Origin: an uncultured Sutterella sp.
GTDB lineage: Bacteria; Pseudomonadota; Gammaproteobacteria; Burkholderiales; Burkholderiaceae_F
Assembly: GCA_949282745.1 (NCBI GenBank)
Contig: CASDQM010000042.1
Span: forward strand, 322 to 64,321
Direction: 5' to 3'
Length of the DNA stretch: 64,000 nucleotides
Every line of letters begins with the position of its first letter. Position 1 is the first letter of the stretch. The notes under the pieces are model-generated. The model had not been told where the DNA came from, ran no database searches, and saw only the letters and a program-made list of their open reading frames with translations. Positions 18,239-57,108 of this stretch are shown here, in pieces. Made by a program: the position numbers and the translations under genes.

Positions 18239-18437
18239 GGCTTCGCCGCCAGCCTGCTACACTTTTGCCACGAACCTTGACGTCGCGGCGCCCGAGGGGA
18301 TTTGTCGCGCGCGGGAAAACGCTGAGTTTTGCGCGCCCGAAAGTTTCCCGTAAGCGAAGCGCCGTACGCTTTTATAGACAAAACGCCGCGGAGGTTTCCC
18401 CGCCGGAAGCCTGCGCAGCCCCAACCGAAAGACACTC

Positions 18438-19244: not shown

Positions 19245-19280
19245 GAACATTTCACCAACCCCTTTTCCAAGGACCGATTT

Positions 19281-20459: not shown

Positions 20460-20536
20460 GCCTCCTTTTCCCGCATGAATCTTCGCTCGCTCCCGAAAGA
20501 CCTCTTTCGGCGGGCGGGCGTTTTCGTTTTTTCCCG

Positions 20537-21229: not shown

Positions 21230-21244
21230 TCCGAGAAAAAAATC

Positions 21245-25147: not shown

Positions 25148-25159
25148 CTCATTCCCTCC

Positions 25160-28748: not shown

Positions 28749-28790
28749 CGCGCCGCTTCGAGAGGCTCAAAAATCGGGAGGCGCCCCGCA

Positions 28791-28881: not shown

Positions 28882-31425
28882 TCACTTCTTCGGCCGCTGC
28901 ACGAGCTGCGGACGATGGAGCGAGTCGATGATGGTGATCACCAGGCCGCGGATGTTGTTTTCCGTCGTGCGGTAGGGAGCGATGCGCATCGTGTAGAAGC
29001 GCTCGTTGTTCCCGACCACTTCGCGGTCGATCGGCGCGAGGTCCTTCAGAACGCACTTCGCGTCGGCGATGATGTCCTCCTCCGGGAAGGCGTGCGCGAA
29101 GATCTGCAGCGATCGGCCCACGTCCTGCTGCACGAGATCGAACTCGCGTCCCACGTACTCGGTGAACTTGCGGATGTTGAGCTTGCTGTCCACGAAGAGG
29201 ATCCCGATCATGGTCGAGGAGAGGAAGTTCGAGAGGTCGTTGTCCATCATCGTGAGTTCGTCGAGTTTCTGCTGATACTCGGAATTCACGGTGTAGAGCT
29301 CTTCGTTGACGGACTGGAGTTCCTCGTTCGAGCTCTGCAGTTCCTCGTTCGCCGTGAGAAGCTCTTCGTTGGCGGCCTGCAGTTCCTCATTCACGGTTTC
29401 GAGTTCCCCGATCGTCGAGCGCAGTTCGCTCTTGCTTCCCTGGAGCTCCTGTTCGAGGTCCATGATGCGCTGCGCCGCGGTGTGGTCGATGTCGTACTTC
29501 TCGGTCGTTCCGTCGAACTTGATGCTGTCGCGGTGTTCGAGAAAGAGGATCGCGATGAAGTCCTCGTCCTTTTCCGTCATGGAAATCGGCTGCACCGAAA
29601 GATCGATGATGCGGCGTCCCTTGGGAGTGTCGACGGCGATGTCCGTGTAGGTGACGGGGGCGTGCTCGTGCCGGCAGCGGTTGAGCGCCGTCGACGCGAT
29701 GAGGTGCAAATCCTTCGTAATCAGCGCAAAGAGATTGAACGTCGCCTTGCCCGGGGCGATGTTCACGTAGTCCGTGCTGTTGCCGAAGAAGTGAATGATG
29801 TCGTTGTTGCCGTTGACCACGACGGACGCCGGGAGGAAGCGCTCGAGGAAGTGAACGTAGATGTTCTCGAGTTGCTTGGGATCGTCCGAACGGGGAATCC
29901 CCGCGTGCGAGAACGTGACGGGGGGCAGAATGTTGTTGGGCACGTTGAAGACGGGCGGCTGCAGATCGTCGACCTTGCCGTCGGCGCAGTGGAGATAGAT
30001 CTTCTCCATGTTGGCGACGACCTGAAAGACGCTCGAGTATTCGCTCGCCGTCTCGCTTTTGCCGAGGAAGAGATAGCCGCCGTTCTTGAGCGCCGTGTGG
30101 AAGATGGCGAAGACGGCCTTCTGCAGAATCGGCTGGAAGTAAATCAGCACGTTTCGGCAGCTGATGAGGTCGAGCTTTCCGAAGGGAGGATCGGAAAACA
30201 TGTTGTGCGGCGCGAAGATGATCATCTTCCGGATTTCTTTCGAAATGTGGTACTGATCGTTCTTCTCGGTGAAGTACTTCGCGAGCCGCTCGGGCGTGAT
30301 GTCTTCCGAGACGCTTTCGGGGAAGACCCCCTTGCTCGCCTTTTCGATCGCCTGAGGATCGATGTCGGTCGCGAAGATCTTCACGTCGCGCTTCACGCCC
30401 GTCTCCTCCATCAGTTCCTTGAGGAGAATGGCGATCGAGTAGGCTTCTTCGCCCGTGGAGCATCCGGCCGACCAGATGCGGATCGGTTCGGTCGGATTGC
30501 CGTTGTGCAGAATCGACGTGAGAGCCGTTTCCTTGAGTTTTTCAAAGAAGTCGCTGTCGCGGAAAAAGCGCGTGACGCCGATGAGGATGTCCTTCATGAG
30601 GAGTTCGGCCTCGCCGGAGTTCTGCTCGAGCAGGTCGGCGTAGTGCTCCATCGTCGGACTCTTCGTCACGACCATGCGCCGTTCGATGCGGCGAAGCACG
30701 GTGTTGCGCTTGTAGTACGTGAAGTCGATTCCGCTCACGGTGCGCAGCATCGCGTAGATGCGGTCGAGCGTCGTGTTGGCGGAGGATTCGTCCGAAATCG
30801 CGGGAAGCGAGATGTTGTGGTAGTTCGCGAGATTGAGGAGCTCTTCGGCGAGTTCCTTCGGGGGCAGGACGAAGTCGGCGAGTCCCGTGTTGATGACCGA
30901 CCGGGGCATGCCGTCGAACTTTGCGCTCTTGGGGTCCTGCGCCATGACGATGCCGCCGCGCTCCTTGATCGTCTTGATCCCGTTGGTGCCGTCCGAGCCC
31001 GTGCCGGAGAGCACGATGCCGACGGCCCGGTCGCGCGCCTCGTTCGCGAGAGAGTCAAAGAAGATGTCGATCGGGTGATTGATCGCGCGGTGGTCGAAGT
31101 CGCTCAGAAGAAGATGTCCCGCCTTGATGGAGAGGTTCTTTTTGGGCGGAATGAGATACACCGCGTTGGGTTCGGCGGGCATGAGGTGCTCGGCCTGAAT
31201 CACGGGCATCGAGGTGTACTTCGCGAGAATCTCCGCCATGAGACTCTTGTAGTCGGGCGAGAGGTGCTGAATGATCACGAAGGTCATGTTGGCGTTGGCG
31301 GGCAGATTCGCAAAAAGGGTCTGCAGAGCCTCGAGTCCTCCCGCAGATGCGCCGATGCCGACGATGAATCGGGCCTCAGTCCGATACGGCGCGCCGGAAT
31401 GGTTCAATGCATTTTCGTTGGTCAT
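28882..31425 (-). CDS. CheB methylesterase - CheR methyltransferase - coiled coil - PAS fusion protein
   Basis: CheB triad S/H/D in GIGASAGG, IQHLSP and LSGTGSDG. CheR motifs IGVTRFFRD, IWSAGCSTGEEAYS, ATDID and CRNVLIYF. (xxNEEL)5 coiled coil and a C-terminal PAS-like domain. No kinase domain. Confidence 0.93.
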   Translation of the reverse strand: MTNENALNHSGAPYRTEARFIVGIGASAGGLEALQTLFANLPANANMTFVIIQHLSPDYKSLMAEILAKYTSMPVIQAEHLMPAEPNAVYLIPPKKNLSIKAGHLLLSDFDHRAINHPIDIFFDSLANEARDRAVGIVLSGTGSDGTNGIKTIKERGGIVMAQDPKSAKFDGMPRSVINTGLADFVLPPKELAEELLNLANYHNISLPAISDESSANTTLDRIYAMLRTVSGIDFTYYKRNTVLRRIERRMVVTKSPTMEHYADLLEQNSGEAELLMKDILIGVTRFFRDSDFFEKLKETALTSILHNGNPTEPIRIWSAGCSTGEEAYSIAILLKELMEETGVKRDVKIFATDIDPQAIEKASKGVFPESVSEDITPERLAKYFTEKNDQYHISKEIRKMIIFAPHNMFSDPPFGKLDLISCRNVLIYFQPILQKAVFAIFHTALKNGGYLFLGKSETASEYSSVFQVVANMEKIYLHCADGKVDDLQPPVFNVPNNILPPVTFSHAGIPRSDDPKQLENIYVHFLERFLPASVVVNGNNDIIHFFGNSTDYVNIAPGKATFNLFALITKDLHLIASTALNRCRHEHAPVTYTDIAVDTPKGRRIIDLSVQPISMTEKDEDFIAILFLEHRDSIKFDGTTEKYDIDHTAAQRIMDLEQELQGSKSELRSTIGELETVNEELQAANEELLTANEELQSSNEELQSVNEELYTVNSEYQQKLDELTMMDNDLSNFLSSTMIGILFVDSKLNIRKFTEYVGREFDLVQQDVGRSLQIFAHAFPEEDIIADAKCVLKDLAPIDREVVGNNERFYTMRIAPYRTTENNIRGLVITIIDSLHRPQLVQRPKK
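29297..29406 (-). repeat. Imperfect 21-bp tandem repeat encoding five NEEL heptads
   Basis: ETVNEELQAANEELLTANEELQSSNEELQSVNEEL. Confidence 0.85.
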
Positions 31426-31437
31426 GTTTCTCTCGCC

Positions 31438-34400
31438 TTATTCGCCGAAAGTGGATTGTGCATTGATTGTACCGTTTTGTAGGTATTTGGCCGCAAAATC
31501 TTCGGAGGGCAGGGGACGTTCGTAAAAGTTTCCCTGCGCCACAAAGCATTTTTTACTCAGCAGAACTTTCGCCTGCGCCTCGGTTTCGACGCCTTCGGCC
31601 ACGACGACGGCGTTTTGCCCGCGGCAGATGCCGACGATGCTTTCGACGAGCGAACGGCTCACGGGATTGCCGACGACGTCGAGAATGAGCGAGCGGTCGA
31701 GTTTGACGGTGTCGAAGCGCACCTTCGAGAACATCGAAAGGTTTGAGTAGCCCGTGCCGAAGTCGTCGAGCGCGAATCGGAAGCCCAGATCCCGATAGGG
31801 ACGCAGGGCGTGCTCGAGCGTGTCCTTTTCGACGGAGCAGGCGGTTTCGGTGATTTCGATTTCGATGAGGCTCGGGTCGATCCGGTCATAGTGGCTCAGC
31901 ACGGCGAGCACCGCGCCCGCGGCCGAGTGGTCGAACACGGTGAAGCGGGAGAAGTTTACGGCGACGGGAACGAGCGGCAGCCCCTGCGACTTCCAGACGT
32001 TCATCTGCCAGAGCACGCGCGAGAGGACGAAGAGGTCGAGTTCGCGCAGGGCCCCGCTCTTTTCCATCTGCGGGATGAAGTGCGCGGGCGAAACCGGGCT
32101 GCCCCTTTCGTCAAGTCCCCGCACGAGCGCTTCGGCGCCGCAGATGCGGCCGGTGCGAAGATCGAACTTGGGCTGGTAGTACACCGTGAAGTCGGCGATC
32201 GTCTTCGTGGAAAAGCGCGGAGCGCCCTTGGGCGTCGATGAGACGGCGGCGGCGAACGGACGGTCGGCCTGCGAGAGCATGATGGTGCGGGCCTCCTTCA
32301 GGAGGTTTTCGCCCGAGAAGATGCCCCTCGACCAGCTTGCACCCGTGGCGATCTGCCCGGGGAAGGTTCTTGCGGCAAAGCACTTCAGGTCGTCCGCGCG
32401 CTCAAAAAACGCCTCCTTCGTGACGTTCGGCGCAAGAAGGGCAAGCTCCATGTCGAAGAGGTGCACGAGCACGGCGTTCGCGAAACTGCGCCGCAGTTCT
32501 CCAGCGAGCGCCTGCATGATGGCGGCGAAGTGTTCCGTTCCGTTTTCGTTGGCGATCTTCAGGGCCTGCGGAACGGCGGCCACGAACGCCCCCATCGTCA
32601 CGCAGTGTTCCGAATTGAGGGAGGCGAGCGCGTCGTGACAGGCGGCGGGGCTCGTGAGGACGTTCGCCTCCGGGGCGAGCGGCAGAAGTTCGTCGCGGCT
32701 CGCCTTGAGCATGCGCTCGTTCAGGAGCGCAAGATAGGGGGCGAGGGCAACGGGAAGCGAGCGGTCGTCGTGCCGGACTTCAGGAGCTTCGATGACGAGG
32801 AGCACGGCCGGGGTGTTTGCAGACGTTCCGCAGGGAACGATCGCATAGGTCCAGGGCGCGCGGTCCGACGGGTCCGCGGCGTCGCCGCTTCGCTTGGCGC
32901 TTCGCACGAAGGCGGGCTTGCCCGAGGCGAGGGCGCGCGTGAGAAGCGGGAACTTCAGCATGGACCGCCCAAGGAGTGCGGGACGGATGGCGGGCTTTCC
33001 TTCGTTCGACCACTCGGTCGCCTCTTCGATCGTCCGGGCGTCTTCCGAGAGCCGCAGCGTGTAGACGCGGGCGGCGCCGTAGTGCCGTCCGAGGACCGCG
33101 AGGATCGCCTCGAGCGCCGCCAAGGGACGGGGCGTGCGGATCAAGAGGTCTAGACACGTGAGCAGGACCGCGTTTTCGTCGGGCGTAAGCGCCGAGGGGA
33201 TCGGCGAATCCGGGACGCGTTCCGCATCGGCTGTTCCGAGACGGCGAAGCGCGTCGGCGCGGGCCGCACATTCGTCGGGGCGAAGCTGCTCGACGGCGTC
33301 GTCGGGTTCCGGTGAAAGGTGTTCAAGGGCGTCGGCCGCGTCGCGCCAGAAGGCGTCGAGCCCAACGGGATCGAGTTCGCCGTGCGTGAAGACGGCCGTG
33401 AAGCGGACGTCCCGACCGGGAAAGAGTTCGAGCGCGCGGCGCACGAAGGCGAAGGCGTCTTCCAGGGCCTTCCGCGCCCGGGCGGACGTCGCGCAGTCGG
33501 GGAGAAAGACCTTGATCGAATCGGCCGATGCGCGGCTTACGATGCCGAGGGACTCGAAAAAGAGTCCGAAGGCCGAAGCGATGAAGGAAAGGGATTCCTC
33601 TTCTCTGCCGCAGGGCGCGAGCGCAGTGCGCACGAGCGCAAACGCCGAGGCGGTCGTCGCGTGGGCGAGGTGCGTTTCGGCGACGTGACGGTCTTCGCCG
33701 GGTTTGCAAAGTTCCTCTTCGTCGCGAAGAATCTTGGGGAGCCGCAGAAGGCGCGCCTCCGACCCGGCCTTTTCGGACCGGACAAGGTAGAAGTGCGCCG
33801 CAAGATGTCCGTTCTCGCCGGACGCAAGCAGTACGTAGAGCGTCGCCGCGCACAGACGGCTGTCGTTTTCGATGCGGACGAAGGGTTCGCACAGCCACCG
33901 CGGCGTGCCGTGAAACTCAGACGCCAAGCGTTCGGGCGCAAGGTTCTCCCGAAGAGCTCGCCGCGTCTCGTCGCCGAAGACGTTCCCGAGGCACTTTTCG
34001 AGGAGATCCGTGTAGCGAAGCGTCCGCACCGAAAGGTCGAAGGAATGCCCTTCGAGCCGGCAGGATTCGACGCGGTTCTCCGTGAGATCCGCGAGAGCGT
34101 AACCGTGAAGAGCCGGAAAGAGCGGCGGACACAGAGCCTGCGCCGTCAAATCCTGCGGGAGAGGCTGCTGCAGACCCAAGCCCGAGATCGTGCCGAAGAC
34201 GAGCCCCGACTCGGGATCGCTCTCGAAGTCGACGCGGCAGCGGTGATGGTTTCCGTCCGGCCGAAGCCGCAGGACGAAAAAGTCCGCGCCCCGCTTTTCG
34301 CCGCAGAGCACGCGGCGCGCAAAGGAACGAAAGCCTTCGGCGCTCTGCGGGTGCACGATTCCGCGTTCGATCAGAACGTCGGGGAAGGGACCGTCCGTGA

Positions 34401-34935
34401 CGACCGTCTCGAAGCCGTCGCCATCGGACCGCGCCAGCGAGAGAATCTGCCGCTTGCCGTCGAAAACCCAGGCGCGCAAAGCGCCGTATTCGAGCTCGAG
34501 TCGGCCGAGGGGAGACGAAAGGGAAGCAGCGTCGCGCGAGGTTTCCAGAAGGACGGCCGGCCCGTCGGAGCCCTGACGGAGGGGTTCGACCTTCACGAAG
34601 CGAAGGGATCGGACGCCCCCGTCCGCCGCGGCTGCGGTCTCTTGCAGAAGCGTGAAGCCCCGGCCGCTTTTCGCGGCCGAGAGAAGCTTCTGTGCGTACG
34701 GAACTCCGACGGCCTCGGGGAGACCGAGTCCCGTCACCGGACAGGGGGGCGGCAGATCTTCGGACACGCGGAGCATTCGGCGTGCCGCGTCGTTCAGGTA
34801 CTGCGCGTGGACTTCGTCCGAAGGCGAGACTTCGTAGAGGACGATGCCCGTTTGGGCCTCGGTCGGTCCGGCGGACCGGTTTCGGCCTTCGTCGTCGAAA
34901 GCCGCGTTGCGGGAAAGAACGAAGCTGGAAGTCAT
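31438..34935 (-). CDS. Large cytoplasmic c-di-GMP phosphodiesterase: PAS-like domains, degenerate GGDEF, GAF, degenerate GGDEF and EAL
   Basis: Intact EAL motifs YYQPK, AEALVR, AVNFS, IEITET, LDDFGTGYS, VKLD, AEGVET and AQG. GGDEF positions read ASADS and FDMEL. No TM segment seen. Upstream domain calls are tentative. Confidence 0.88.
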   Translation of the reverse strand: MTSSFVLSRNAAFDDEGRNRSAGPTEAQTGIVLYEVSPSDEVHAQYLNDAARRMLRVSEDLPPPCPVTGLGLPEAVGVPYAQKLLSAAKSGRGFTLLQETAAAADGGVRSLRFVKVEPLRQGSDGPAVLLETSRDAASLSSPLGRLELEYGALRAWVFDGKRQILSLARSDGDGFETVVTDGPFPDVLIERGIVHPQSAEGFRSFARRVLCGEKRGADFFVLRLRPDGNHHRCRVDFESDPESGLVFGTISGLGLQQPLPQDLTAQALCPPLFPALHGYALADLTENRVESCRLEGHSFDLSVRTLRYTDLLEKCLGNVFGDETRRALRENLAPERLASEFHGTPRWLCEPFVRIENDSRLCAATLYVLLASGENGHLAAHFYLVRSEKAGSEARLLRLPKILRDEEELCKPGEDRHVAETHLAHATTASAFALVRTALAPCGREEESLSFIASAFGLFFESLGIVSRASADSIKVFLPDCATSARARKALEDAFAFVRRALELFPGRDVRFTAVFTHGELDPVGLDAFWRDAADALEHLSPEPDDAVEQLRPDECAARADALRRLGTADAERVPDSPIPSALTPDENAVLLTCLDLLIRTPRPLAALEAILAVLGRHYGAARVYTLRLSEDARTIEEATEWSNEGKPAIRPALLGRSMLKFPLLTRALASGKPAFVRSAKRSGDAADPSDRAPWTYAIVPCGTSANTPAVLLVIEAPEVRHDDRSLPVALAPYLALLNERMLKASRDELLPLAPEANVLTSPAACHDALASLNSEHCVTMGAFVAAVPQALKIANENGTEHFAAIMQALAGELRRSFANAVLVHLFDMELALLAPNVTKEAFFERADDLKCFAARTFPGQIATGASWSRGIFSGENLLKEARTIMLSQADRPFAAAVSSTPKGAPRFSTKTIADFTVYYQPKFDLRTGRICGAEALVRGLDERGSPVSPAHFIPQMEKSGALRELDLFVLSRVLWQMNVWKSQGLPLVPVAVNFSRFTVFDHSAAGAVLAVLSHYDRIDPSLIEIEITETACSVEKDTLEHALRPYRDLGFRFALDDFGTGYSNLSMFSKVRFDTVKLDRSLILDVVGNPVSRSLVESIVGICRGQNAVVVAEGVETEAQAKVLLSKKCFVAQGNFYERPLPSEDFAAKYLQNGTINAQSTFGE

Positions 34936-34980
34936 AACGGTAGTCGAAAAGAATTCCGATGGATTGGCGCGGTTCGGCCG

Positions 34981-36654: not shown

Positions 36655-36866
36655 TTGTCGTCGGATGCTTTCGTCGCAATGGAGTCGGGACCAAGGTCAA
36701 GCAAGTCGCTCAATTTATACTCTCTCGAGACGGCGCGGCGGCCGACAAAGAGCCAGCGAAGCCGCGCGGCAAGGCGGGAGAGCCGCGGCGCGAAAAACCA
36801 CCCCGCGGCGAAGGCGAGGATAACCGCAATCGCAAGGACGTGGGGCTCAAAGAGAATCGGGGGCAT
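36651..36866 (-). CDS. bcsF: Small single-TM cellulose biosynthesis protein BcsF
   Basis: 71 aa with one TM followed by a basic stretch. Lies between bcsE and bcsG with a 4-nt overlap. Confidence 0.75.
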   Translation of the reverse strand: MPPILFEPHVLAIAVILAFAAGWFFAPRLSRLAARLRWLFVGRRAVSREYKLSDLLDLGPDSIATKASDDK

Positions 36867-36869
36867 GGG

Positions 36870-40140: not shown

Positions 40141-40152
40141 CGTTTTGAGACC

Positions 40153-40947: not shown

Positions 40948-40963
40948 GAAGAAACTCCTTTCT

Positions 40964-42565: not shown

Positions 42566-42615
42566 GTAGCAGTTCCTTGGTGGAGCTGTGAGTCTGACGG
42601 TGAGGCGCGATGCGC

Positions 42616-47042: not shown

Positions 47043-47054
47043 CTTCGACCTCTC

Positions 47055-49361
47055 TCAGGACTTGCGGTTGGACGGAATGCGAAGCTTCTCGCGGGCGCTC
47101 AAAAGCCGTCCCGAGACGACGCGCGTCATGAGGAGATAGATGAGAAGCGCCGCGCACGCGAGGAAGACGAGCGTGATCCCGAAGAGCACGAAGGGCTTGT
47201 CGAGAAGCTGATTCCAGATGCGCTGATGCCAGGGCAGGTCGCCCACGACGTAGGTTTCGGCCGGCCGGAAGTTGACGCTTCCCTTGCGGGAGAGGAAGCT
47301 CACCGCTCCCTCGACGTCGTAGAAGCTTCCCGCGGCGCCGAGCTTGTCCTGAAGGAGCGCCGTGCCGGCGCCCGGCTGCGAGAGGAGCGCCACGACCGTG
47401 CGGCCCCGGGTCACGGGGGACTCGAAACTCACGAGCGCCGCCTGACGGTCGCTCTCGATAAGGTCGGCCCGCACGCGGATCGCCCGTTCTTTGCGAAGCG
47501 CCGGACCGTCCTCGGGCGCGAGCCCGCGGCGGATTTCCTCGGCAAAGGGCGTCCCTTCGGGCAGATCTCCGCCCGAAGTGAGGTTTCCGACCACGAGGAC
47601 GTCGCGGTCGGCAAGCGCCTCGGGCGCGGGATCGGTCGACACCGTCACGAGCACGCCCGCGGTTCCCGTCTGCGAGCCGATGCGCGCGACGGCGGAAAGC
47701 ATCGTGCCCACATCCTCGGCGTCGGGATTCTTCGGGAGCACCACCGTCGTTTGCGCGAGGTCCGCGAAGCGTGAATACGGGTAGCCTGCATGCGTGAAGA
47801 GCCGCAGATTCGGAAGTTCCGCGTAGTGGTAGAACCCGCGGAAGTCGAGCGTGCTCGAAGGATCGATTTCCACCTGGTTTTCCGTGAGCGACACCGAGGG
47901 GCATTTCCCGGGAAGCGAACTGTCCGTCACCGTAACGTCGTACTGAAAGTCGAATTCGAGCGTGTTGTTCGAATCGAGGTAGACGCTCGGCAGATTGAGG
48001 GCGCGCAGCCAGCTCGCCATCGCGTCGAGCGCCGCAACGCGGCGCACAACGGGGGCACTGACCGATTCGTCGGACTCCAGCACTTCGTAGCCCATGAGCG
48101 CTTCGTTGATGCGCACGCGCACGCTCGCTGTCGCGTTTTCGCCCGGGGGCGTGTAGCGGTAGCTGAGCTCCATCGGAATGCCGGTTCTCGGCAGAACGAA
48201 GAGGTCGGGCGCAAGACGGAAGTGAACCGTGATCGGGGCGGGGAAGGCGCCGCGCGAACGAAGCTGCGACTTGTGATCGACGAGTTCGTCAAAGCGCACC
48301 TTGCGGTCCGTCGGCAGCCACTTGCGGGCGTCGTAGGCGGGGCGCGGCGTGAGGCGCGGGGATTCCGTCACGAGAACGCGCGGGCCCGCGAAGCGGTCGC
48401 CTTCGAGCGCGAGCGCCTGCGCGGCCGCAACGAGCTCTTCATCGTTGCGCCCGGCGATGACGAGAACCTTGGCCCAGTCCGAGTGGGGCGCGTTGGCGAT
48501 GCGCACCTCCGGTCCGGTGATTTCGGGCGTGCCCCGCAGAAAGTCGGGGAGCGTTTCCGGCGTCGCAAAGACGACGAAGTGTCCCTCGGCGGGCGCCTCT
48601 CCGAAGTACGCCGGCAGGGAGAGATCACGCCAGTCGGCCGTTTTGCCGGCCCACGAGGCGATGACCGCGGCCGCCTGCAGTTCCTTGTCGGAGGGGTGCG
48701 CGGAGAGGAGCACGGGGAGCGTGATGCGGCTTCGCGCGCCCGGATCGATGAAGGGGGAGGGAAGAAGCTGCAGCTCGTTGGCGACGCGGATCTTCTGCTT
48801 GTGGAGCGTAAGGGAACTCTCCCGATCGATTTCGAGCCAGAGCGACGCGTCGGCGGGGGACTCGCAGTTGTGCTCGTAGGAGCCGACGAACTCAAATTCG
48901 AGTTCGTTCATGTCCTTGAGGCGCTTGGGATTGAGTTCGACGGTCGTCACCACGGTCTTCCCGATCTCTTCGGTCGTGATCGGGAGACTCCGCTCGAGTT
49001 CGCCGTTGAGCCGCAGATTGAGCTGTGACTTCACCGGAAGGAGCACGGGCGAAGACGTCCACTTGAAGGTGACGGAAGCCTTCGTCGCGAGTTCGTCGCG
49101 GGCGATGACGAAGGGAAGACGCCACTTGGCGTTGAGTCCGGTCATGCGGATCGCGGTGTTCTCGGGCACGGGCTTCAGGGCGGCAAAGCGCTCCGTCTCG
49201 ATGCGCGTCTCGAGTGCTCCGTCGTCTGCGTGCGAGACAAGGAGCGCCTCGGCAAACGGGCGCAGATCCTCCGCGGACGTCTCCTGAGCGGAGGCGTCCG
49301 GGAGGGTCAGAACGAAACTCAGGCCCAGAAGACTGAGGGCGAAGAGGTGTCTGGTCGTCAT
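47055..49361 (-). CDS. bcsB: Cellulose synthase co-catalytic subunit BcsB (start re-called at MTTRHL)
   Basis: WTSSPVLLPVKSQL, ANELQLLPSPF, LPNLRLFTHAGYPYSRFADLAQT, YVVGDLPW and a C-terminal TM. Confidence 0.95.
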   Translation of the reverse strand: MTTRHLFALSLLGLSFVLTLPDASAQETSAEDLRPFAEALLVSHADDGALETRIETERFAALKPVPENTAIRMTGLNAKWRLPFVIARDELATKASVTFKWTSSPVLLPVKSQLNLRLNGELERSLPITTEEIGKTVVTTVELNPKRLKDMNELEFEFVGSYEHNCESPADASLWLEIDRESSLTLHKQKIRVANELQLLPSPFIDPGARSRITLPVLLSAHPSDKELQAAAVIASWAGKTADWRDLSLPAYFGEAPAEGHFVVFATPETLPDFLRGTPEITGPEVRIANAPHSDWAKVLVIAGRNDEELVAAAQALALEGDRFAGPRVLVTESPRLTPRPAYDARKWLPTDRKVRFDELVDHKSQLRSRGAFPAPITVHFRLAPDLFVLPRTGIPMELSYRYTPPGENATASVRVRINEALMGYEVLESDESVSAPVVRRVAALDAMASWLRALNLPSVYLDSNNTLEFDFQYDVTVTDSSLPGKCPSVSLTENQVEIDPSSTLDFRGFYHYAELPNLRLFTHAGYPYSRFADLAQTTVVLPKNPDAEDVGTMLSAVARIGSQTGTAGVLVTVSTDPAPEALADRDVLVVGNLTSGGDLPEGTPFAEEIRRGLAPEDGPALRKERAIRVRADLIESDRQAALVSFESPVTRGRTVVALLSQPGAGTALLQDKLGAAGSFYDVEGAVSFLSRKGSVNFRPAETYVVGDLPWHQRIWNQLLDKPFVLFGITLVFLACAALLIYLLMTRVVSGRLLSAREKLRIPSNRKS

Positions 49362-49421
49362 TTTCAACACAATCAAAGTTTTCTTGTCGTTTTCGTTGCC
49401 GGCCTTCAGGCCGTTCGCAAA

Positions 49422-51992
49422 TCAGAATTCACGTCGTCGGGGGCGTCTCGGGATAAAGTCCGAAACCCAGCGCAGGAAGCGCTGAACGTCCACCAGTCCG
49501 ATGGCGGCCCAGGAGGGCGCGAGGCTGACGATCGATCGGATGCCGAGTCCCGCAAAGGCGAGGATCGCCCGCAGGGCTTCTCCAATTCCAACGCCCGGCT
49601 TGTGCAGTGCGTCGTCCCACAGGTGGTCCCGGCAGAAGGTCGCGGCGATGAAGCGCTTCTCTTCGGCAAGGCTTCGGAAGGTGAGTTCGATCCCGACCCC
49701 GCGTGCGTTGGCTCGGCGGACGATGCCCCGGAATTCGCACGGGACGCCTTCGTCCTCCAGAACGAGCGAAACGGCTTCGGAGGCGCGTAGAAGTCCCGCC
49801 GCTTCGGCGGGCATTTCGAGATTCACGCCCGTCTGCGAAAAGTCCCGCAGGGTCGCGTGCCAGACGGTTCCGTCGTCGCGGCGAAGCGACGCGCGGCGGC
49901 GCGTCGTCACGCGGTGAAAGCGCCGTTCCTGCACGGTCTCGACAGCCACGGCGACGGCCGCGGAGAGGATCACCATGTTGTAGAGGAGCCATACGGCGTT
50001 GACGAGAATCGTCGCGCCGTCGAGGCCGCTCGAAATGAACGCGCGTCCGAGGAGCCACAGGAGTCCCGCGACGTTGAGGGCGAGAAGCACCAGATAGGGG
50101 CGCGCGATGTGCCAGTCGAGGTGGTCGGAGTCGACCTGACCGCCCTTGGTCGTCACGTTGAACTTGCCTACGTGGGGCGCAAAAAGTGCGACCGTTGTCG
50201 GAATCGCGATGTACCAGGAGAGCACCGTGTCGTAGATTTCACCCATCAGAGGGAAGCGAAGTCCCCGTTGCGCGAACTCGTTCGAGAGATTGAGATGCAC
50301 GAGGTGCGGCACGACGAAGGCGAGAATCGCCAGTCCCGGCGCCTGAATGACGTTCGCGTCGAAGAAGACGAAGGGAAGCGGCGCGATGAGGAAGATGATC
50401 CTCGGAATGCCGAGGAGGAAGTAGAACATCCCGCTGAAGAAGCACAGCCGCTGTCCGAGCGAAAGGCCGCGCCCGAAAAGCGGATTGTCGAGACGGAAGA
50501 TCTGAATCATCCCGCGCGCCCAACGGATGCGCTGCCCGATGTGCGAGGCGAGCGTCTCGGTCGAAAGGCCCGCGGCAAGCGGCGTTGAAATGAAGGCCGA
50601 ACGCCATCCCCGTCGGTAGAGCCGAAGCGACGTATGGGCGTCTTCGGTGACGGTTTCGGTGGCGATTCCCCCGATTTCGTCGAGCGCCTCGCGGCGGATG
50701 ACGGTGCAGGAGCCGCAAAAGAGCGTCGCGTTCCAGGTGTCGTTGCCGCGCTGAATGAAGACGTGAAAGAGGGCGTCCTCCTGCGGTACGGCGTCCGTGA
50801 GACGGAGGTTGCGCTGATAGGGCGCGGGCGAATAGAAGTGATGCGGCGTCTGCACGAGCGCGATCTTTCGGTCGTGGAGCATCCAGCCCATGGTGTTGGT
50901 GAGGAAGGACCGCACCGGAATGTGGTCGCAGTCGAAGATCACGACGAATTCGCCGTGAATCTTGCCGAGCGCGTGATTGATGTTCCCCGCCTTGGCGCCC
51001 TTGTGTTCTTCTCGACGGATGTAGCCCACGCCCGCCTCTCGGGCGAAGGCCTGAAAGTCGTCGCGGTCGCCGTCGTCGAGAATCCAGACGTGCAGCTTTT
51101 CTTTGGGCCAGTCCATCGACAGCACCCCGAGGATCGTGGTGCGCACGAGTTCGAGAGGCTCGTTGTAGCTCGGAATGCAGACGTCGACGTGCGGCCACAG
51201 GGAGCGGTCTTCGGGAAGGGGGTAGGGCTTGCGGTCGAGCACCCAGAAGGTCTGGAAGTAACTGAGCGCCATCAGGACGAAGGTGTAGATCTCCGCCGTC
51301 ATGAGAAGCGCCGAAAAGACGTGTCCCTGAATCGAATCGAAATTGACCGTCTCGGTGAGGCGCCACCAGAGGTAGCGCGACGAGACGACGAGCGAGAGAA
51401 GGACGAGAAGCAGTACCGTGAGCCGAATGCGCACGAGCCGAAGCACGAGCGCAAGAGCGAAGGTGCAGGCGGAGAAGAGTACCTGGAAACGGGGGTCAAG
51501 ATGCTGCGTCACGCAGAGCGCGAAAAGGACGACCACGACGGCCCCGAGCAGCGCGAGAAGGATCGCGCGCATCGGACCGACGGGCTGCGGCTCGAGCTCG
51601 GCGAAGCGTTTGGCCTCGCGACGGTCCCAGGCCTTGAGCGAGACCGTCGCCCGGTACAGGAACCGAGCGGGCAGTGAGCGTTTTTTCTCCCGAACGGGCG
51701 TCGCGCGGGATGAAGAAGCGCCGCTGAAAAAGAGGAGAAAGAAGCTTTGGATCAGAATCCGCAGGCCGTCGAGCGGGCGGGTGCGGGCGGGATCGACGTT
51801 CGAGTAGAAGTCCGAAAAGCGGGCGCGCAGGGTTCGCCAGTTCGCGTTTTCCAAAGGCAAAAAGAGCCACGCCGCCGCCAGGAGGGCGCCGTTCACGATG
51901 GAGGAAACAAGCGACGTGGACTTTTCGAGGAGCTGCGCGCCTTCCCAATCCACGCCGCGGAAGAACCGCAGCAGGACGGTTTTGATCAGCAT
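49422..51992 (-). CDS. bcsA: Cellulose synthase catalytic subunit BcsA (GT2 + PilZ) with an enterobacterial-type N-terminal domain
   Basis: LDDG, KAGNIN, FDCDH, QTPH, TEDAH, QRIRWARG, gating loop FNVTTKG, PilZ RRFHR and DFSQTG. N-terminus FLPLENANW...RPLDGLR. Confidence 0.98.
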   Translation of the reverse strand: MLIKTVLLRFFRGVDWEGAQLLEKSTSLVSSIVNGALLAAAWLFLPLENANWRTLRARFSDFYSNVDPARTRPLDGLRILIQSFFLLFFSGASSSRATPVREKKRSLPARFLYRATVSLKAWDRREAKRFAELEPQPVGPMRAILLALLGAVVVVLFALCVTQHLDPRFQVLFSACTFALALVLRLVRIRLTVLLLVLLSLVVSSRYLWWRLTETVNFDSIQGHVFSALLMTAEIYTFVLMALSYFQTFWVLDRKPYPLPEDRSLWPHVDVCIPSYNEPLELVRTTILGVLSMDWPKEKLHVWILDDGDRDDFQAFAREAGVGYIRREEHKGAKAGNINHALGKIHGEFVVIFDCDHIPVRSFLTNTMGWMLHDRKIALVQTPHHFYSPAPYQRNLRLTDAVPQEDALFHVFIQRGNDTWNATLFCGSCTVIRREALDEIGGIATETVTEDAHTSLRLYRRGWRSAFISTPLAAGLSTETLASHIGQRIRWARGMIQIFRLDNPLFGRGLSLGQRLCFFSGMFYFLLGIPRIIFLIAPLPFVFFDANVIQAPGLAILAFVVPHLVHLNLSNEFAQRGLRFPLMGEIYDTVLSWYIAIPTTVALFAPHVGKFNVTTKGGQVDSDHLDWHIARPYLVLLALNVAGLLWLLGRAFISSGLDGATILVNAVWLLYNMVILSAAVAVAVETVQERRFHRVTTRRRASLRRDDGTVWHATLRDFSQTGVNLEMPAEAAGLLRASEAVSLVLEDEGVPCEFRGIVRRANARGVGIELTFRSLAEEKRFIAATFCRDHLWDDALHKPGVGIGEALRAILAFAGLGIRSIVSLAPSWAAIGLVDVQRFLRWVSDFIPRRPRRREF

Positions 51993-52936
51993 CGGGCTTC
52001 CTCACGAAGTCGGGCGGCGCGAAGGATCAGCCAGGTGGAAAGCGCGGCGATCGCCTGGGCGCTTTCGGAAAAGCGGGCGAGCTGCGTCACGGGTCCGCGC
52101 TGCAGGGCGGACCGGGCGGCGAACTCGTCGAGAGGAATGTTCTGCGGCGCAATGCGGGCGGCAAGTCCCGGCGTCGCGCGCAGGAACTGCATCACGTCAG
52201 TGTGACTTTGCAGGGAGCTCAGCGCCTTGTTGAAGAGAACCACCTCGTTGTGGGCGATGGAGTCTTCAGACAACTTCATCGCCGTGTGGGTGTCGGGTTC
52301 CGCCACGGTGACGACGATGTCCGCCGCGTTGCGCCAACGGCGCGCCGCGTCTCCGTCGGCATGACCGAGGTCGACGACGACGTGCGTGAAGCCCGAGCCG
52401 CAGAGAGCGGCAGGGTCGAACTTGGAGGGAGGGTGCTCGGAATTTCCGTTCCCGTTTTCGTGGATGTCGAGCGCAAGAAAGAGCGGATCCGAATAACGCC
52501 AGAACGTGTCGCGAAACGCATCTTCGGAGGTGGGCGGCGCCGGCAGATTGAAGAGGGCGCAAAAGCCCGAACAATTGCATTGCGGCGCAACGGCGAGCAC
52601 GCGGCTGTCGCGGCGGGAACTTAATTGCCAGGCGGCTGCCGAGGCGACGGTCGAGCTTCCCGCGCCTTCGCGAAGGCTCTGGAAAACAAGTACGATCGGG
52701 CGTTTTTCAACGGAGAGAGGCTTTGCGGAGTGTCCGGCAGTAACGGCGTTTTCGGACGCAGGAGCGCCTCTCCCGCTCAGAAAGGCGAGAAGACCGTATT
52801 GCCGGACAAGCGTCTCCCGCCGGGCTGCATCCCGTGCCGGAATCGAAGACGGGGAAATTGTTGCGGGCGTGCAGGAACGAAGTCGCGAGGCGACAGAATC
52901 ATTCGACGTCATGCTCTCAGGTTCAGCGTTCGACAA
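51986..52936 (-). CDS. bcsQ: BcsQ (MinD/ParA-like) with a ~70-aa N-terminal extension resembling BcsR (putative BcsR-BcsQ fusion); start may be TTG 52936 or ATG 52912
   Basis: VFQSLREGAGSSTVASAAAWQL (deviant Walker A), VVVDL, LFNK, IPLDE and SESAQAIAALSTWL. Overlaps the bcsA start. Confidence 0.85.
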   Translation of the reverse strand: MSNAEPESMTSNDSVASRLRSCTPATISPSSIPARDAARRETLVRQYGLLAFLSGRGAPASENAVTAGHSAKPLSVEKRPIVLVFQSLREGAGSSTVASAAAWQLSSRRDSRVLAVAPQCNCSGFCALFNLPAPPTSEDAFRDTFWRYSDPLFLALDIHENGNGNSEHPPSKFDPAALCGSGFTHVVVDLGHADGDAARRWRNAADIVVTVAEPDTHTAMKLSEDSIAHNEVVLFNKALSSLQSHTDVMQFLRATPGLAARIAPQNIPLDEFAARSALQRGPVTQLARFSESAQAIAALSTWLILRAARLREEARC

Positions 52937-56181: not shown

Positions 56182-56193
56182 GAAAAAAAAATC

Positions 56194-57096: not shown

Positions 57097-57108
57097 GGTG
57101 TGTGAATC

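What the first reader, a model, noticed from the sequence alone, without database searches (positions are those of the whole stretch)
28882..52936. Self-contained 13-gene pEtN-cellulose operon with c-di-GMP and methylation signalling genes embedded among the bcs genes
Seen: 13 minus-strand genes with overlaps or gaps of 60 nt or less, in the order bcs(R)Q-A-B-Z-C-EAL-SBP-GGDEF-bcsE-F-G-EAL-CheB/CheR. All diagnostic motifs for synthesis, export and phosphoethanolamine modification are intact. Known: in E. coli and Salmonella bcsEFG is divergent from bcsRQABZC, and the controlling cyclases and phosphodiesterases are encoded elsewhere. Inference: this is one co-transcribed unit that senses a signal, makes and degrades c-di-GMP locally, and makes pEtN-cellulose. 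The host is probably a Sutterellaceae-like gut anaerobe, a group for which I know of no described cellulose production.
Basis: partly seen in the sequence, partly recalled or inferred. Interest (0 to 1): 0.88.

Follow-up and report, generated by a model that had tools for sequence, protein, structure and literature searches.

The report
Sutterella cellulose operon with own c-di-GMP circuit
An uncultured gut Sutterella carries one 24-kb gene string that encodes a complete E. coli-type cellulose machine together with the genome's only detectable enzymes for making, degrading and sensing the signal c-di-GMP, so the whole signalling network appears dedicated to this one product.

Summary
Thirteen tightly packed minus-strand genes (28882-52936) encode BcsQ(with a possible BcsR-like N-end)-A-B-Z-C, an EAL phosphodiesterase, an orphan amino-acid-type binding protein, a two-TM GGEEF cyclase, BcsE, a BcsF-sized protein, BcsG, a 1165-aa EAL protein and a CheB-CheR-PAS fusion. 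Catalytic motifs of BcsA, BcsG, BcsE, the cyclase and both EAL domains are intact.

In this 92%-complete genome the operon holds the only GGDEF, EAL, PilZ and CheR domains. There is no HD-GYP domain, and no MCP in 25 genomes of the genus. Canonical PilZ-BcsA and GGDEF genes occur together in six of those genomes, and 16 have neither.

The core order recurs in six or more diverged Sutterella lineages, but not in nine other BcsE-bearing Burkholderiales loci. EAL2 plus CheB-CheR is a separate mobile gene pair (8 of 8 contexts, including Desulfovibrio piger).

A second bcsABZG locus with a degenerate PilZ exists elsewhere in the genome.

Verdict: new variant of a known kind.

The parts
52937..53608 (-). 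672-nt upstream intergenic region, the presumed promoter and leader of the operon
   Evidence: No ORF with coding-like GC3. No Rfam family, including c-di-GMP riboswitches. No sigma-70 consensus above chance. The role is inferred from position only.
51986..52936 (-). bcsQ with an ~81-aa N-terminal extension, a possible BcsR-BcsQ fusion (alternative ATG start at 52912)
   Evidence: Pfam CBP_BcsQ 49 bits against cut-off 21. Residues 82-311 are colinear with E. coli BcsQ residues 3-243, E=8e-4, with a deviant P-loop. The N-terminal extension against E. coli BcsR gives E=0.002 and is colinear, but it has no Pfam or PDB hit.
49422..51992 (-). bcsA, cellulose synthase catalytic subunit with a canonical PilZ domain
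   Evidence: TIGR03030 793 bits against cut-off 699. Motifs DDG, DCD, TED, QRIRW, FNVTTK, RRFHR and DFSQTG are present. It carries the only PilZ domain in the genome.
47055..49376 (-). bcsB, periplasmic co-catalytic subunit
   Evidence: Pfam BcsB 555 bits. Signal-like N-terminus and a C-terminal TM anchor at 730-748.
45843..47042 (-). bcsZ, GH8 periplasmic endoglucanase
   Evidence: NF008305 358 bits against cut-off 299.
42616..45846 (-). bcsC, TPR plus outer-membrane beta-barrel exporter
   Evidence: Pfam BCSC_C 249 bits plus TPR hits.
40964..42688 (-). EAL1, cytoplasmic phosphodiesterase whose N-terminal ~320 aa match no Pfam family. The likely true start is ATG 42565 (533 aa). It is positionally analogous to E. 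coli pdeK.
   Evidence: Pfam EAL 139 bits. The residues I recall as essential for EAL catalysis (E, N, E, D, D, K, E) are conserved in this protein and its orthologues. The 533-aa product is called in L052. pdeK follows bcsC in E. coli.
40153..40947 (-). Orphan family-3 solute-binding protein, the presumed periplasmic ligand sensor
   Evidence: Pfam SBP_bac_3. Best PDB relatives are HisJ and LAO. The equivalents of HisJ Arg77 and Asp161 are kept. N-terminal signal or anchor at residues 4-22. No transporter genes lie in the operon.
38458..40140 (-). Membrane diguanylate cyclase: TM1, a ~250-aa helical periplasmic domain, TM2, a helical linker and GGDEF
   Evidence: Pfam GGDEF 136 bits. GGEEF450, no I-site. 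TM segments at 19-37 and 291-309. The AF2 model is all-helical over residues 16-325 with a GGDEF fold. It is the only GGDEF domain in the genome.
36870..38489 (-). bcsE, c-di-GMP-binding regulator (likely start ATG 38465)
   Evidence: Pfam CBP_BcsE 235 bits. RAGD aligns to the E. coli RTGD motif.
36651..36866 (-). bcsF-like 71-aa single-pass membrane protein
   Evidence: Assigned by position between bcsE and bcsG. One TM segment at 4-22. A 63-76-aa ORF is conserved at this position in L003, L004, L013, L036 and L052. Only E=0.066 against E. coli BcsF, and no family hit.
34981..36654 (-). bcsG, phosphoethanolamine transferase
   Evidence: TIGR03368 508 bits against cut-off 410. The alignment to E. 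coli BcsG (9b8v) conserves the Cys, the Ser nucleophile, His, and the Glu-His pair.
31438..34935 (-). EAL2, 1165-aa cytoplasmic multidomain phosphodiesterase. By eye its N-terminal 900 aa look like PAS, GAF and degenerate GGDEF regions.
   Evidence: Pfam EAL 194 bits with canonical EAL, DDFGTGYS and EGVE motifs. It is homologous over its full length to the proteins encoded immediately upstream of CheB-CheR in L034, L036, L035, L038 and L039. Precomputed Pfam on those homologues lists PAS, weak GGDEF and EAL.
28882..31425 (-). CheB-CheR fusion with five NEEL heptads and a PAS_10 domain (no receiver, no kinase)
   Evidence: Pfam CheB_methylest, CheR_N, CheR and PAS_10. The alignment to CheR structures covers the IWSAGCSTGEE, ATDID and CRNVLIYF motifs. 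NEEL array at 679-713. It is the only CheR domain in 25 genus genomes.
28775..28788 (-). Terminator-like hairpin plus T-run, ~95 nt after the CheB-CheR stop codon
   Evidence: The total count of such sites in the region does not exceed shuffled expectation, so this is only a candidate.
53609..53977 (+). Divergent 122-aa double-HTH protein, a possible regulator or IS-type orfA
   Evidence: Pfam HTH_23 and HTH_Tnp_1. One 84%-identical paralogue lies on contig C38. Any link to the operon is untested.

Best explanation
This is a type II (E. coli-like) cellulose secretion locus of an uncultured gut Sutterella. bcsQABZC and bcsEFG are colinear and joined by a three-gene signalling insert.

Proposed working:
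1. The periplasmic amino-acid-type binding protein reports a ligand to the helical periplasmic domain of the two-TM cyclase.
2. The cyclase (GGEEF, no feedback I-site) makes c-di-GMP.
3. c-di-GMP opens the PilZ-gated BcsA and binds BcsE.
4. BcsA and BcsB polymerise glucan.
5. BcsG adds phosphoethanolamine, BcsZ trims, and BcsC exports.
6. EAL1, at the position pdeK holds in E. coli, and EAL2 remove c-di-GMP.

The operon holds every recognisable c-di-GMP synthase, hydrolase and receptor in the genome. The second messenger therefore acts here as a private on/off line for one product.

The last two genes, EAL2 and CheB-CheR-PAS, are a horizontally mobile pair added in this lineage. They most likely add a second, cytoplasmic input to c-di-GMP hydrolysis that is tuned by methylation.

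Shown here: gene content, motifs, the genome-wide census, conservation of order, and the modularity of the EAL2 + CheB-CheR pair.

Inferred: co-transcription, the ligand, the SBP-cyclase contact, pEtN-cellulose as the product, and any methylation target.
For: - Domain and motif assignments.
- Junctions of 50 nt or less, with no internal terminator signal above chance.
- Census of the own genome: 1 GGDEF, 2 EAL, 1 PilZ, 0 HD-GYP, 1 CheR, 0 MCP. All those found lie in the operon.
- Genus pattern: canonical PilZ-BcsA occurs in G000, G001, G004, G016, G021 and G022, each of which has at least one GGDEF. Sixteen of 24 sister genomes have neither.
- The order C-EAL-SBP-GGDEF-E-F-G is conserved despite deep divergence (cyclase only 30-52% identical) in G001, G022, L013, L003, L004 and L052.
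- The SBP keeps the equivalents of the two HisJ residues that, as I recall, bind the amino-acid alpha-carboxylate and alpha-ammonium groups.
- The cyclase has two TM segments flanking a 250-aa helical loop.
- Precedents: DgcC/PdeK local signalling at BcsB in E. coli (PMC7397504; PMC8892547). From my own knowledge: ArtI plus STM1987, arginine-stimulated cellulose in Salmonella; and NspS-MbaA in Vibrio cholerae.
- An EAL2-type protein lies immediately upstream of CheB-CheR in 8 of 8 contexts: the window, L003, L034, L035, L036, L038, L039 and L052.
Against: - There is no transcript evidence.
- Module boundaries seen in relatives (C|EAL1 and G|EAL2, with 50- and 45-nt gaps) could hide internal promoters.
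- The genome is a 55-contig assembly estimated 92.5% complete, so a further GGDEF or EAL gene could lie in the missing part.
- The sensor domains of the cyclase, EAL1 and EAL2 match no Pfam family, so the signals are unknown.
- The BcsQ P-loop is deviant, and the BcsF and BcsR assignments are weak.
- In Proteus, a bcs cluster with a co-localised sole cyclase gave no detectable cellulose even on overexpression (PMC13609730), so gene content does not guarantee product.
- A second bcsABZG locus means the cell's cellulose output is not governed by this operon alone.
Confidence: 0.7

Rival explanations
1. The cluster is three functional and transcriptional units that only happen to be colinear: bcsQABZC; EAL1-SBP-DGC-bcsEFG; and EAL2-CheBR. 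Each has its own promoter and its own evolutionary history. It is a mosaic island, not one sense-and-respond operon.
For: - Relatives shuffle exactly at these boundaries. L004, L013, G001 and G022 lack EAL2-CheBR. L036 lacks the SBP. G021 has GGDEF-SBP upstream of bcsQ. G004 and G016 have Q-A-B-Z-bigEAL-GGDEF-G. GCA_027494335.1 has EAL-EAL-SBP-GGDEF-EAL2-CheBR with no bcs genes within the 10 kb read upstream.
- In E. coli, bcsEFG is a separate operon.
- The largest gaps, 45-50 nt, fall at these boundaries.
- The operon sits at different chromosomal sites in sister species.
Against: - Gaps of 45-50 nt leave no room for a free-standing promoter plus terminator.
- No promoter or terminator consensus appears at the boundaries.
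- The same colinear order persists at 30-55% protein identity, which argues for selection on linkage.
- Even if multi-promoter, the census result still makes the units functionally interdependent.
Confidence: 0.25
2. The locus is present but phenotypically silent or decaying. A deviant BcsQ P-loop, a divergent BcsF and BcsR, and atypical EAL1 motifs would mean that no pEtN-cellulose is made, as reported for Proteus.
For: - BcsQ P-loop reads REGAGSS instead of RGGVGTT.
- BcsQ, BcsB, BcsC and BcsE score below NCBIfam equivalog cut-offs.
- Proteus precedent (PMC13609730).
- Patchy distribution: 6 of 25 genus genomes carry a canonical PilZ-BcsA locus, with a weak PilZ hit in a seventh, G019.
Against: - All 13 frames are open, with coding-type GC3 of 0.71-0.85.
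- Every catalytic residue checked in BcsA, BcsG, BcsE, the cyclase and both EAL domains is conserved.
- Orthologues 30-55% identical keep the same genes and motifs, which indicates purifying selection.
Confidence: 0.1
3. The arrangement is an assembly or binning artefact of a metagenome-assembled genome, joining pieces from different organisms (for example the Desulfovibrio-like CheB-CheR).
For: - The genome has 55 contigs and 2.4% estimated contamination.
- CheB-CheR is 69% identical to Desulfovibrio piger proteins.
- GC falls to 0.59-0.60 over 28-32 kb.
Against: - Independent assemblies reproduce the same joins: L003 aligns continuously from window position 46654 to 28792 at 86.6% nt identity, and L052 does so as well.
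- The core order lies in a complete single-contig chromosome, G022.
- GC3 of CheB-CheR (0.85) matches its neighbours.
Confidence: 0.02

Closest known systems
E. coli / Salmonella type II (type IIa) Bcs system: bcsRQABZC plus bcsEFG, making pEtN-cellulose
   Same: The same subunit set is present: Q, A, B, Z, C, E, G, an F-sized ORF and a possible R. BcsA is 44% identical. BcsG is E=5e-131 against E. coli BcsG, with its catalytic residues conserved. The BcsE RxGD site and the BcsA PilZ motifs are conserved. An EAL gene directly follows bcsC, as pdeK does in E. coli.
   Different: All genes run in one direction, whereas E. coli has two divergent operons. An SBP and the activating cyclase sit between the EAL gene and bcsE, whereas in E. 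coli DgcC (AdrA) is encoded elsewhere. BcsR may be fused to BcsQ. EAL1 is cytoplasmic and lacks the TM-HAMP region of PdeK; only the EAL domains align. Two further genes, EAL2 and CheB-CheR, follow bcsG.
bcs clusters with co-localised c-di-GMP turnover genes (E. coli EcType 2-4 clusters; Proteus with a single cyclase next to bcs), from the Romling laboratory, PMC13609730 and its ref. 14
   Same: GGDEF and EAL genes sit adjacent to bcs genes. Proteus has a minimal c-di-GMP network with one competent cyclase next to its presumed target and two bcs clusters per genome.
   Different: Here the turnover genes lie inside a colinear type II operon, between bcsC and bcsE. They include an SBP partner. 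By domain census they are the whole network, including both phosphodiesterases and the only PilZ. The host is a Sutterella, an obligately host-associated Burkholderiales genus.
Local DgcC-PdeK signalling at the E. coli Bcs complex (Richter et al. 2020, PMC7397504)
   Same: The concept is one dedicated cyclase and one dedicated phosphodiesterase serving the cellulose synthase.
   Different: In E. coli, specificity must be achieved against 12 cyclases and 13 phosphodiesterases through protein contacts. Here no competing enzymes are detectable, so specificity is trivial. Contacts with BcsB were not tested.
Binding-protein-controlled c-di-GMP enzymes: ArtI + STM1987 (arginine to cellulose, Salmonella) and NspS-MbaA (polyamines, Vibrio cholerae), cited from my own knowledge
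   Same: A periplasmic solute-binding protein without its own transporter is paired with a membrane c-di-GMP enzyme that has a periplasmic domain. ArtI and ArtJ are among the best NCBIfam matches of the SBP.
   Different: The sensor domain of this cyclase matches no Pfam family. Only six sequence clusters share it in a 5.8-billion-protein search. The ligand and the SBP-cyclase contact are untested.
CheB/CheR fusion proteins (KEGG K13924 type: CheB-CheR, NEEL coiled coil, PAS, usually with a histidine kinase)
   Same: The modules are CheB (GASAGG Ser motif seen by eye; CheB structures match), the CheR SAM site, a five-heptad NEEL helix and PAS_10.
   Different: There is no kinase. Instead there is an obligate upstream partner gene encoding a large PAS / degenerate-GGDEF / EAL protein (8 of 8 contexts). 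The genus has no MCP at all. The pair is appended to a cellulose operon.
Wsp-type chemosensory control of c-di-GMP (WspA-WspC/WspF-WspR, Pseudomonas)
   Same: CheR- and CheB-type enzymes are linked to c-di-GMP output and matrix polysaccharide.
   Different: No MCP was found. No CheA, CheW or receiver-cyclase gene lies in the window, and these were not searched genome-wide. This is not a member of that family.

Membership tests
Type II (E. coli-like) Bcs cellulose secretion system | BcsA GT2 synthase with D,D,D,QxxRW motifs and a C-terminal PilZ (RxxxR, D/NxSxxG), next to BcsB | tested here: met
   TIGR03030 scores above its cut-off and all motifs are present.
Type II (E. coli-like) Bcs cellulose secretion system | Hallmark genes bcsE and bcsG | tested here: met
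   BcsE: Pfam 235 bits with RxGD conserved. BcsG: TIGR03368 above its cut-off with catalytic Cys, Ser, His and Glu-His conserved.
Type II (E. coli-like) Bcs cellulose secretion system | bcsF, a small single-pass membrane protein between bcsE and bcsG | tested here: inconclusive
   A 71-aa ORF with one TM segment lies at the right place and is conserved in relatives. It has no family or PDB hit. BLASTP against E. coli BcsF gives E=0.066.
Type II (E. coli-like) Bcs cellulose secretion system | BcsR and BcsQ (SIMIBI ATPase) upstream of bcsA | tested here: inconclusive
   BcsQ is met at Pfam level and is colinear with E. coli BcsQ, but its P-loop is deviant. BcsR appears only as a weak colinear match of the N-terminal extension (E=0.002), with no profile hit.
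Type II (E. coli-like) Bcs cellulose secretion system | BcsC outer-membrane exporter and BcsZ GH8 glucanase | tested here: met
Type II (E. coli-like) Bcs cellulose secretion system | The product is phosphoethanolamine-modified cellulose | not testable with these tools
   This needs a polymer preparation with solid-state NMR and cellulase digestion.
Dedicated (local) c-di-GMP module for cellulose | A catalytically competent cyclase and phosphodiesterase | tested here: met
   GGEEF plus the metal and substrate residues. EAL2 is canonical. EAL1 keeps the seven essential residues. Enzyme activity itself was not assayed.
Dedicated (local) c-di-GMP module for cellulose | No other c-di-GMP enzymes or receptors compete in the cell | tested here: met
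   Own-genome census with Pfam GGDEF, EAL, PilZ and HD_5 and tblastn. Caveat: the assembly is 92.5% complete.
Dedicated (local) c-di-GMP module for cellulose | Physical contact of the cyclase or phosphodiesterase with BcsB or BcsA | not testable with these tools
   This needs two-hybrid or pull-down experiments.
SBP-controlled c-di-GMP enzyme (NspS-MbaA / ArtI-STM1987 type) | An orphan periplasmic SBP adjacent to a membrane c-di-GMP enzyme with a periplasmic domain | tested here: met
   The SBP-cyclase adjacency recurs in L003, L004, L013, L034, L052, G001, G022 and G021. It is absent in L036.
SBP-controlled c-di-GMP enzyme (NspS-MbaA / ArtI-STM1987 type) | Ligand-dependent SBP-sensor interaction changes enzyme activity | not testable with these tools
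   This needs ITC or DSF ligand screening and reconstitution.
CheB/CheR fusion sensor family | CheB esterase, CheR methyltransferase, NEEL coiled coil and PAS in one protein | tested here: met
CheB/CheR fusion sensor family | A histidine-kinase output in the same protein | tested here: not met
   The protein ends after PAS_10, with no HisKA or HATPase domain. The conserved neighbour is an EAL protein instead.
Chemosensory (Che/Wsp-like) pathway | A methyl-accepting receptor (MCPsignal) as substrate, with CheA and CheW | tested here: not met
   MCPsignal is found in 0 of 25 genus genomes. No such genes lie in the window. CheA and CheW were not searched genome-wide.

The most novel reading that the evidence does not exclude
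EAL2-type phosphodiesterase plus CheB-CheR-NEEL-PAS is a self-contained, horizontally mobile 'adapting' c-di-GMP switch that works without any chemoreceptor. The fusion would write and erase methyl groups on its own NEEL Glu-Glu helix, or on its partner, and so set the activity of the neighbouring phosphodiesterase.

Gut bacteria of different phyla (Sutterella, Desulfovibrio piger, Mailhella) exchange this pair. In Sutterella it has been plugged into a one-operon c-di-GMP circuit, giving cellulose production a methylation-based memory.

A corollary concerns the genus's widespread bcsABZG synthase. It has lost the autoinhibitory PilZ arginine and would be a naturally c-di-GMP-independent pEtN-cellulose synthase.
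Probability: 0.3. Interest if true: 0.8.

Novelty: new variant of a known kind. Interest (0 to 1): 0.62.

Why it matters
1. It offers a natural minimal c-di-GMP system: one cyclase, two phosphodiesterases and two receptors (BcsA-PilZ and BcsE), all in one operon with their single output. Sister species lack the messenger entirely. That makes it a clean model for how second-messenger networks are gained, lost and kept specific, and for reconstituting signal-to-polymer control heterologously.

2. It predicts pEtN-cellulose, a matrix polymer known from Enterobacteriaceae that shapes adhesion and host responses, in Sutterella. Sutterella is a prevalent mucosa-associated gut commensal, and no cellulose production was found described for it in the searched literature.

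3. The conserved EAL2 + CheB-CheR pair occurs in genomes with no MCP. This gives a concrete, testable handle on the long-unassigned substrate of the very large CheB/CheR-fusion family.

4. DGC-linked BcsA has a canonical PilZ, while the ABZG-type BcsA has a degenerate PilZ and sits mostly in cyclase-free genomes. This contrast is a natural experiment on c-di-GMP gating of cellulose synthase.

Tried and rejected
- Promoter and terminator scans of 27.5-54.4 kb gave nothing above shuffled expectation.
- Rfam on the whole window, and a sensitive search of the 5' region, found no riboswitch or other RNA family.
- Pfam at E<=5 was run on the BcsF-like ORF, the BcsQ N-terminal extension, the cyclase periplasmic domain, the EAL1 N-terminus and three thirds of the EAL2 N-terminus. 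There were no credible hits.
- PDB sequence searches of the N-terminal extension and the BcsF-like ORF gave no hits.
- AF2 plus Foldseek of the cyclase was dominated by GGDEF-domain matches. The periplasmic domain could only be described as a helical bundle.
- The full MCP methylation consensus [ASTG]2-x2-[EQ]2-x2-[ASTG]2 occurs in none of the operon proteins or the EAL2 homologues. Only the shorter EExx[AS][AST] motif clusters, in the CheB-CheR NEEL helix.
- A class-level BcsE survey, evenly sampled, gave only one other hit in 400 genomes. It was therefore useless for judging how common the architecture is outside the order.
Whether that bcs-less signalling cassette has a bcs target elsewhere is unknown.
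- Romling & Galperin 2015 and Liu et al. 2020 are not held. Their content is cited only through papers that quote them.
- MAG chimerism was considered and rejected (see rivals).

Full report
**1. What is in the sequence**

The region 28882-52936 carries 13 minus-strand ORFs with coding-type codon-position GC (GC3 0.71-0.85).

Profile searches name 12 of them: BcsQ, BcsA, BcsB, BcsZ, BcsC, an EAL protein (EAL1), a family-3 solute-binding protein (SBP), a GGDEF protein, BcsE, BcsG, a 1165-aa EAL protein (EAL2), and a CheB_methylest-CheR_N-CheR-PAS_10 fusion (CheBR).

The thirteenth ORF is 71 aa and lies between bcsE and bcsG.
- It has one N-terminal TM segment.
- An ORF of 63-76 aa is conserved at the same place in relatives.
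- It has no family or PDB match, and only E=0.066 to E. coli BcsF.

Junctions are -7, 45, 12, -4, -73, 16, 12, -32, 3, -4, 45 and 12 nt. The two long overlaps vanish if EAL1 starts at ATG codon 42 and BcsE at ATG codon 9. Those starts give the product lengths called in relative L052 (533 and 531 aa). No junction then exceeds 50 nt.

No promoter- or terminator-like site exceeds shuffled expectation inside the cluster. A hairpin plus T-run lies about 95 nt after the last stop codon. A 672-nt gene-free leader precedes bcsQ and contains no Rfam family.

**2. Are the parts functional?**

- BcsA has DDG, DCD, TED, QRIRW, the FNVTTK gating loop, and PilZ RRFHR plus DFSQTG.
- BcsG aligns end to end with E. 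coli BcsG (E=5e-131). NICSLS, SATSYSGPA, LHDGN and VVPEHG are conserved; as I recall E. coli BcsG, these carry C243, S278, H396 and E442/H443.
- BcsE aligns its KRAGD to E. coli NRTGD, which I take to be the c-di-GMP I-site.
- The cyclase has GGEEF and no RxxD I-site. It has two TM segments (19-37 and 291-309) around a 250-aa loop that AlphaFold models as helices (pLDDT 70-94), then a helical linker and a GGDEF fold.
- EAL2 is canonical: EAL, DDFGTGYS, EGVE.
- EAL1 reads EFL, DDFGTC and EGIQ. It and all its orthologues keep the E, N, E, DD, K, E and Q positions.
- The SBP is closest to HisJ and LAO. It keeps the equivalents of HisJ Arg77 and Asp161, which bind the amino-acid backbone as I recall, and it has a signal or anchor segment.
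- CheBR aligns with CheR and CheB structures, with the SAM-site motifs intact. It carries five consecutive NEEL heptads at 679-713.

Weak points:
- The BcsQ P-loop reads QSLREGAGSST against E. coli QGVRGGVGTTT, although the protein is colinear with E. coli BcsQ over its whole length.
- The 81-aa N-terminal extension resembles E. coli BcsR only weakly (E=0.002, colinear). Fused BcsR-BcsQ is a known arrangement (PMC8892547).

**3. Who carries it**

The window is contig C42 of a 2.5-Mb, 55-contig assembly estimated 92.5% complete. The nearest loci are labelled 'uncultured Sutterella sp.' (92% and 84% BcsG identity). Their flanks beyond the operon match other contigs of this genome at 90-93% nt identity.

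Those same flanks show that the operon sits at different chromosomal sites in sister species, so it behaves like an island.

**4. Genome-wide census (the main new result)**

In this genome the operon holds:
- the only GGDEF domain;
- the only two EAL domains;
- the only PilZ domain;
- the only CheR domain.

There is no HD-GYP domain and no MCP.

Across 25 genomes of the genus:

| Domain or feature | Genomes |
|---|---|
| No GGDEF at all | 16 of 24 sister genomes |
| EAL | 7 of 25 |
| PilZ | 7 of 25 (six canonical, one weak hit in G019) |
| MCPsignal | 0 of 25 |
| CheR | only this genome |

Canonical PilZ-BcsA occurs in G000, G001, G004, G016, G021 and G022. Each of these has at least one GGDEF gene, and wherever I fetched the locus the GGDEF gene lies inside it. 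The messenger, its enzymes and its receptor thus come and go together as one physical unit.

**5. Conservation and modularity**

The order (Q-A-B-Z-)C-EAL-SBP-GGDEF-E-F-G recurs in six further loci:
- L003 and L004, 72-98% identical;
- L052;
- L013, cyclase 52% identical;
- G001 and G022, where the proteins are only 27-55% identical.

Order kept at that divergence argues for selection on linkage.

Variants exist:
- L036 lacks the SBP.
- G021 has GGDEF-SBP in front of bcsQ.
- G004 and G016 have Q-A-B-Z-large EAL-GGDEF-G.

The cyclase's sensor region has only six related clusters in a 5.8-billion-protein search, though that search is limited to relatives sharing short exact words.

In an even sample of 401 genomes of the order, BcsE occurs in only 10 genera. 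None of the nine other loci has EAL-SBP-GGDEF between bcsC and bcsE. Five have B-Z-C-E-x-A-G. Two have a convergent G-F-E, and one of these (G409) has GGDEF-bcsE-(F)-G.

**6. The last two genes are a different module**

EAL2 and CheBR are present in the window, L003, L036 and L052. They are absent after bcsG in L004, L013, G001 and G022.

CheBR has 79-81% identical relatives in other assemblies, and 66-69% identical ones in Desulfovibrio piger, 'Candidatus Mailhella' and others. That is far too similar for vertical descent between phyla.

In all eight contexts examined, the gene immediately upstream (with a 4-nt overlap or a gap of no more than 28 nt) encodes an EAL2-type protein. These proteins are homologous to EAL2 over its full length. 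The Desulfovibrio versions add an N-terminal GGDEF domain that is intact in D. piger and L038.
- In D. piger the pair is bracketed by DDE transposase genes.
- In GCA_027494335.1 the full signalling set EAL-EAL-SBP-GGDEF-EAL2-CheBR stands beside a chaperone-usher fimbrial cluster, with no bcs gene within the 10 kb read upstream.

EAL2 + CheBR is therefore a mobile two-gene unit tied to c-di-GMP hydrolysis, not to cellulose as such.

The genus has no MCP, so the substrate of the CheR and CheB domains cannot be a chemoreceptor. None of the operon proteins has the full MCP methylation consensus. The only cluster of EExx[AS][AST] sites is CheBR's own NEEL helix.

Earlier unchecked notes of this scan propose self-methylation of that helix. 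They also report single polypeptides that fuse CheB-CheR-PAS to GGDEF-EAL. I treat those as leads only.

**7. A second cellulose locus**

Contig C15 of the same genome carries bcsA-B-Z-G with no bcsC, bcsE, bcsF, bcsQ or cyclase gene. The same minimal locus is found in at least ten other genomes of the genus.

Its BcsA keeps every catalytic motif, but the PilZ signature is systematically degenerate:
- the first Arg of RxxxR becomes His or Asp;
- DxSxxG becomes E/QxSQx(E/H/D) in most copies; three (G001, G022, G019) keep the final Gly.

These proteins form a clade nested among the DGC-linked BcsAs, and most of their hosts have no GGDEF gene. From my knowledge of Rhodobacter BcsA, that Arg forms the autoinhibitory salt bridge released by c-di-GMP. 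These enzymes may therefore be c-di-GMP-independent.

Two consequences follow. The contrast strengthens the reading of the window operon as the c-di-GMP-gated version. It also shows that the window operon is not the cell's only cellulose machinery.

**8. Comparison with what is known**

The machine is a member of the type II (E. coli-like) Bcs systems, with BcsF and BcsR left inconclusive.

- pdeK lies 82 nt after bcsC on the same strand.
- DgcC and PdeK act locally at BcsB (PMC7397504; PMC8892547).
- GGDEF and EAL genes next to bcs clusters are described for E. coli EcType 2-4 clusters.
- A sole cyclase co-localised with bcs is described for Proteus, where no cellulose could be shown (PMC13609730).

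What I did not find described:
- a colinear type II operon with EAL-SBP-GGDEF inserted between bcsC and bcsE;
- an operon that contains the organism's entire recognisable c-di-GMP network;
- bcs genes in Sutterella;
- the EAL2 + CheB-CheR gene pair.

**9. Verdict**

The self-contained circuit is well supported by the census. The single transcript, the signal, the product and the methylation target remain inferences.

Novelty: new variant of a known kind. Interest is moderate to high for c-di-GMP and biofilm specialists, and the most novel open lead is the MCP-independent CheB-CheR/EAL pair.

Limits: the assembly is draft, no expression data could be obtained, the context samples are small, and two key reviews were not readable.

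Noticed in passing
G000:C15:26835-35203 (same genome, other contig); also L041-L047, L050 and L051: A second, minimal bcsA-B-Z-G locus with no bcsC, bcsE, bcsF, bcsQ or cyclase gene. Its BcsA has intact catalytic motifs but a degenerate PilZ: RxxxR becomes H/DxxxR, and DxSxxG becomes E/QxSQx[EHD] in most copies. It is conserved in at least 10 other genus genomes, most of which have no GGDEF gene at all. It is a candidate c-di-GMP-independent pEtN-cellulose synthase lineage.
   Followed up: partly
L035:2769-11969 (Desulfovibrio piger contig): A 1395-aa GGDEF-PAS-EAL protein, homologous to EAL2 over its full length, plus a CheB-CheR-PAS fusion 69% identical to the window's. The pair is bracketed on both sides by DDE_Tnp_1 transposase genes, so it looks like a composite-transposon-borne signalling pair shared across phyla.
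   Followed up: partly
L037:8234-20517 (GCA_027494335.1): The signalling genes occur as a stand-alone string, EAL-EAL-SBP-GGDEF-EAL2-CheBR, next to a divergent chaperone-usher fimbrial cluster and followed by HNH and transposase genes. No bcs gene lies within 10 kb upstream. The target of c-di-GMP in that genome could not be checked because the record is not held.
   Followed up: partly
window 53609-53977 (+): A 122-aa double helix-turn-helix protein (HTH_23, HTH_Tnp_1) is transcribed divergently from the operon across a 672-nt gap. One 84%-identical paralogue lies on contig C38. It could be a regulator of the operon or an IS remnant.
   Followed up: partly
G409:C37 (L030/L031), locus coordinates ~17444-21256: In another family of the same order, a GGDEF gene sits directly upstream of bcsE-(F)-G on one strand, convergent with bcsA-B-Z-C. 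This is an independent case of a cyclase joined to bcsEFG.
   Followed up: no
G290, G401, G060, G379 and G134 loci (L016-L021, L024-L025, L028-L029): Five Burkholderiales genomes share an unusual colinear order, bcsB-Z-C-E-(~1.7-2.1 kb gap)-A-G, with bcsA displaced behind bcsE.
   Followed up: no
G004:C14 and G016:C31 (L009-L012): A variant locus, bcsQ-A-B-Z-[1223- or 1507-aa open frame ending in an EAL domain]-GGDEF-bcsG, with no detectable BcsC, BcsE or SBP. The N-terminal part of the large protein was not analysed.
   Followed up: no
window 24536-27562 (-) and 54294-57750 (+): Flanking genes are a molybdopterin oxidoreductase with a 4Fe-4S subunit on the left, typical of anaerobic respiration. 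On the right is a lower-GC sugar-nucleotide cassette: an NTP-transferase/APH-kinase fusion, a PMI-like isomerase and ribulose-phosphate 3-epimerase.
   Followed up: no
L013:15331-17223: In the relative whose cyclase is 52% identical, bcsG is followed by a 630-aa protein with no Pfam match instead of EAL2-CheBR.
   Followed up: no
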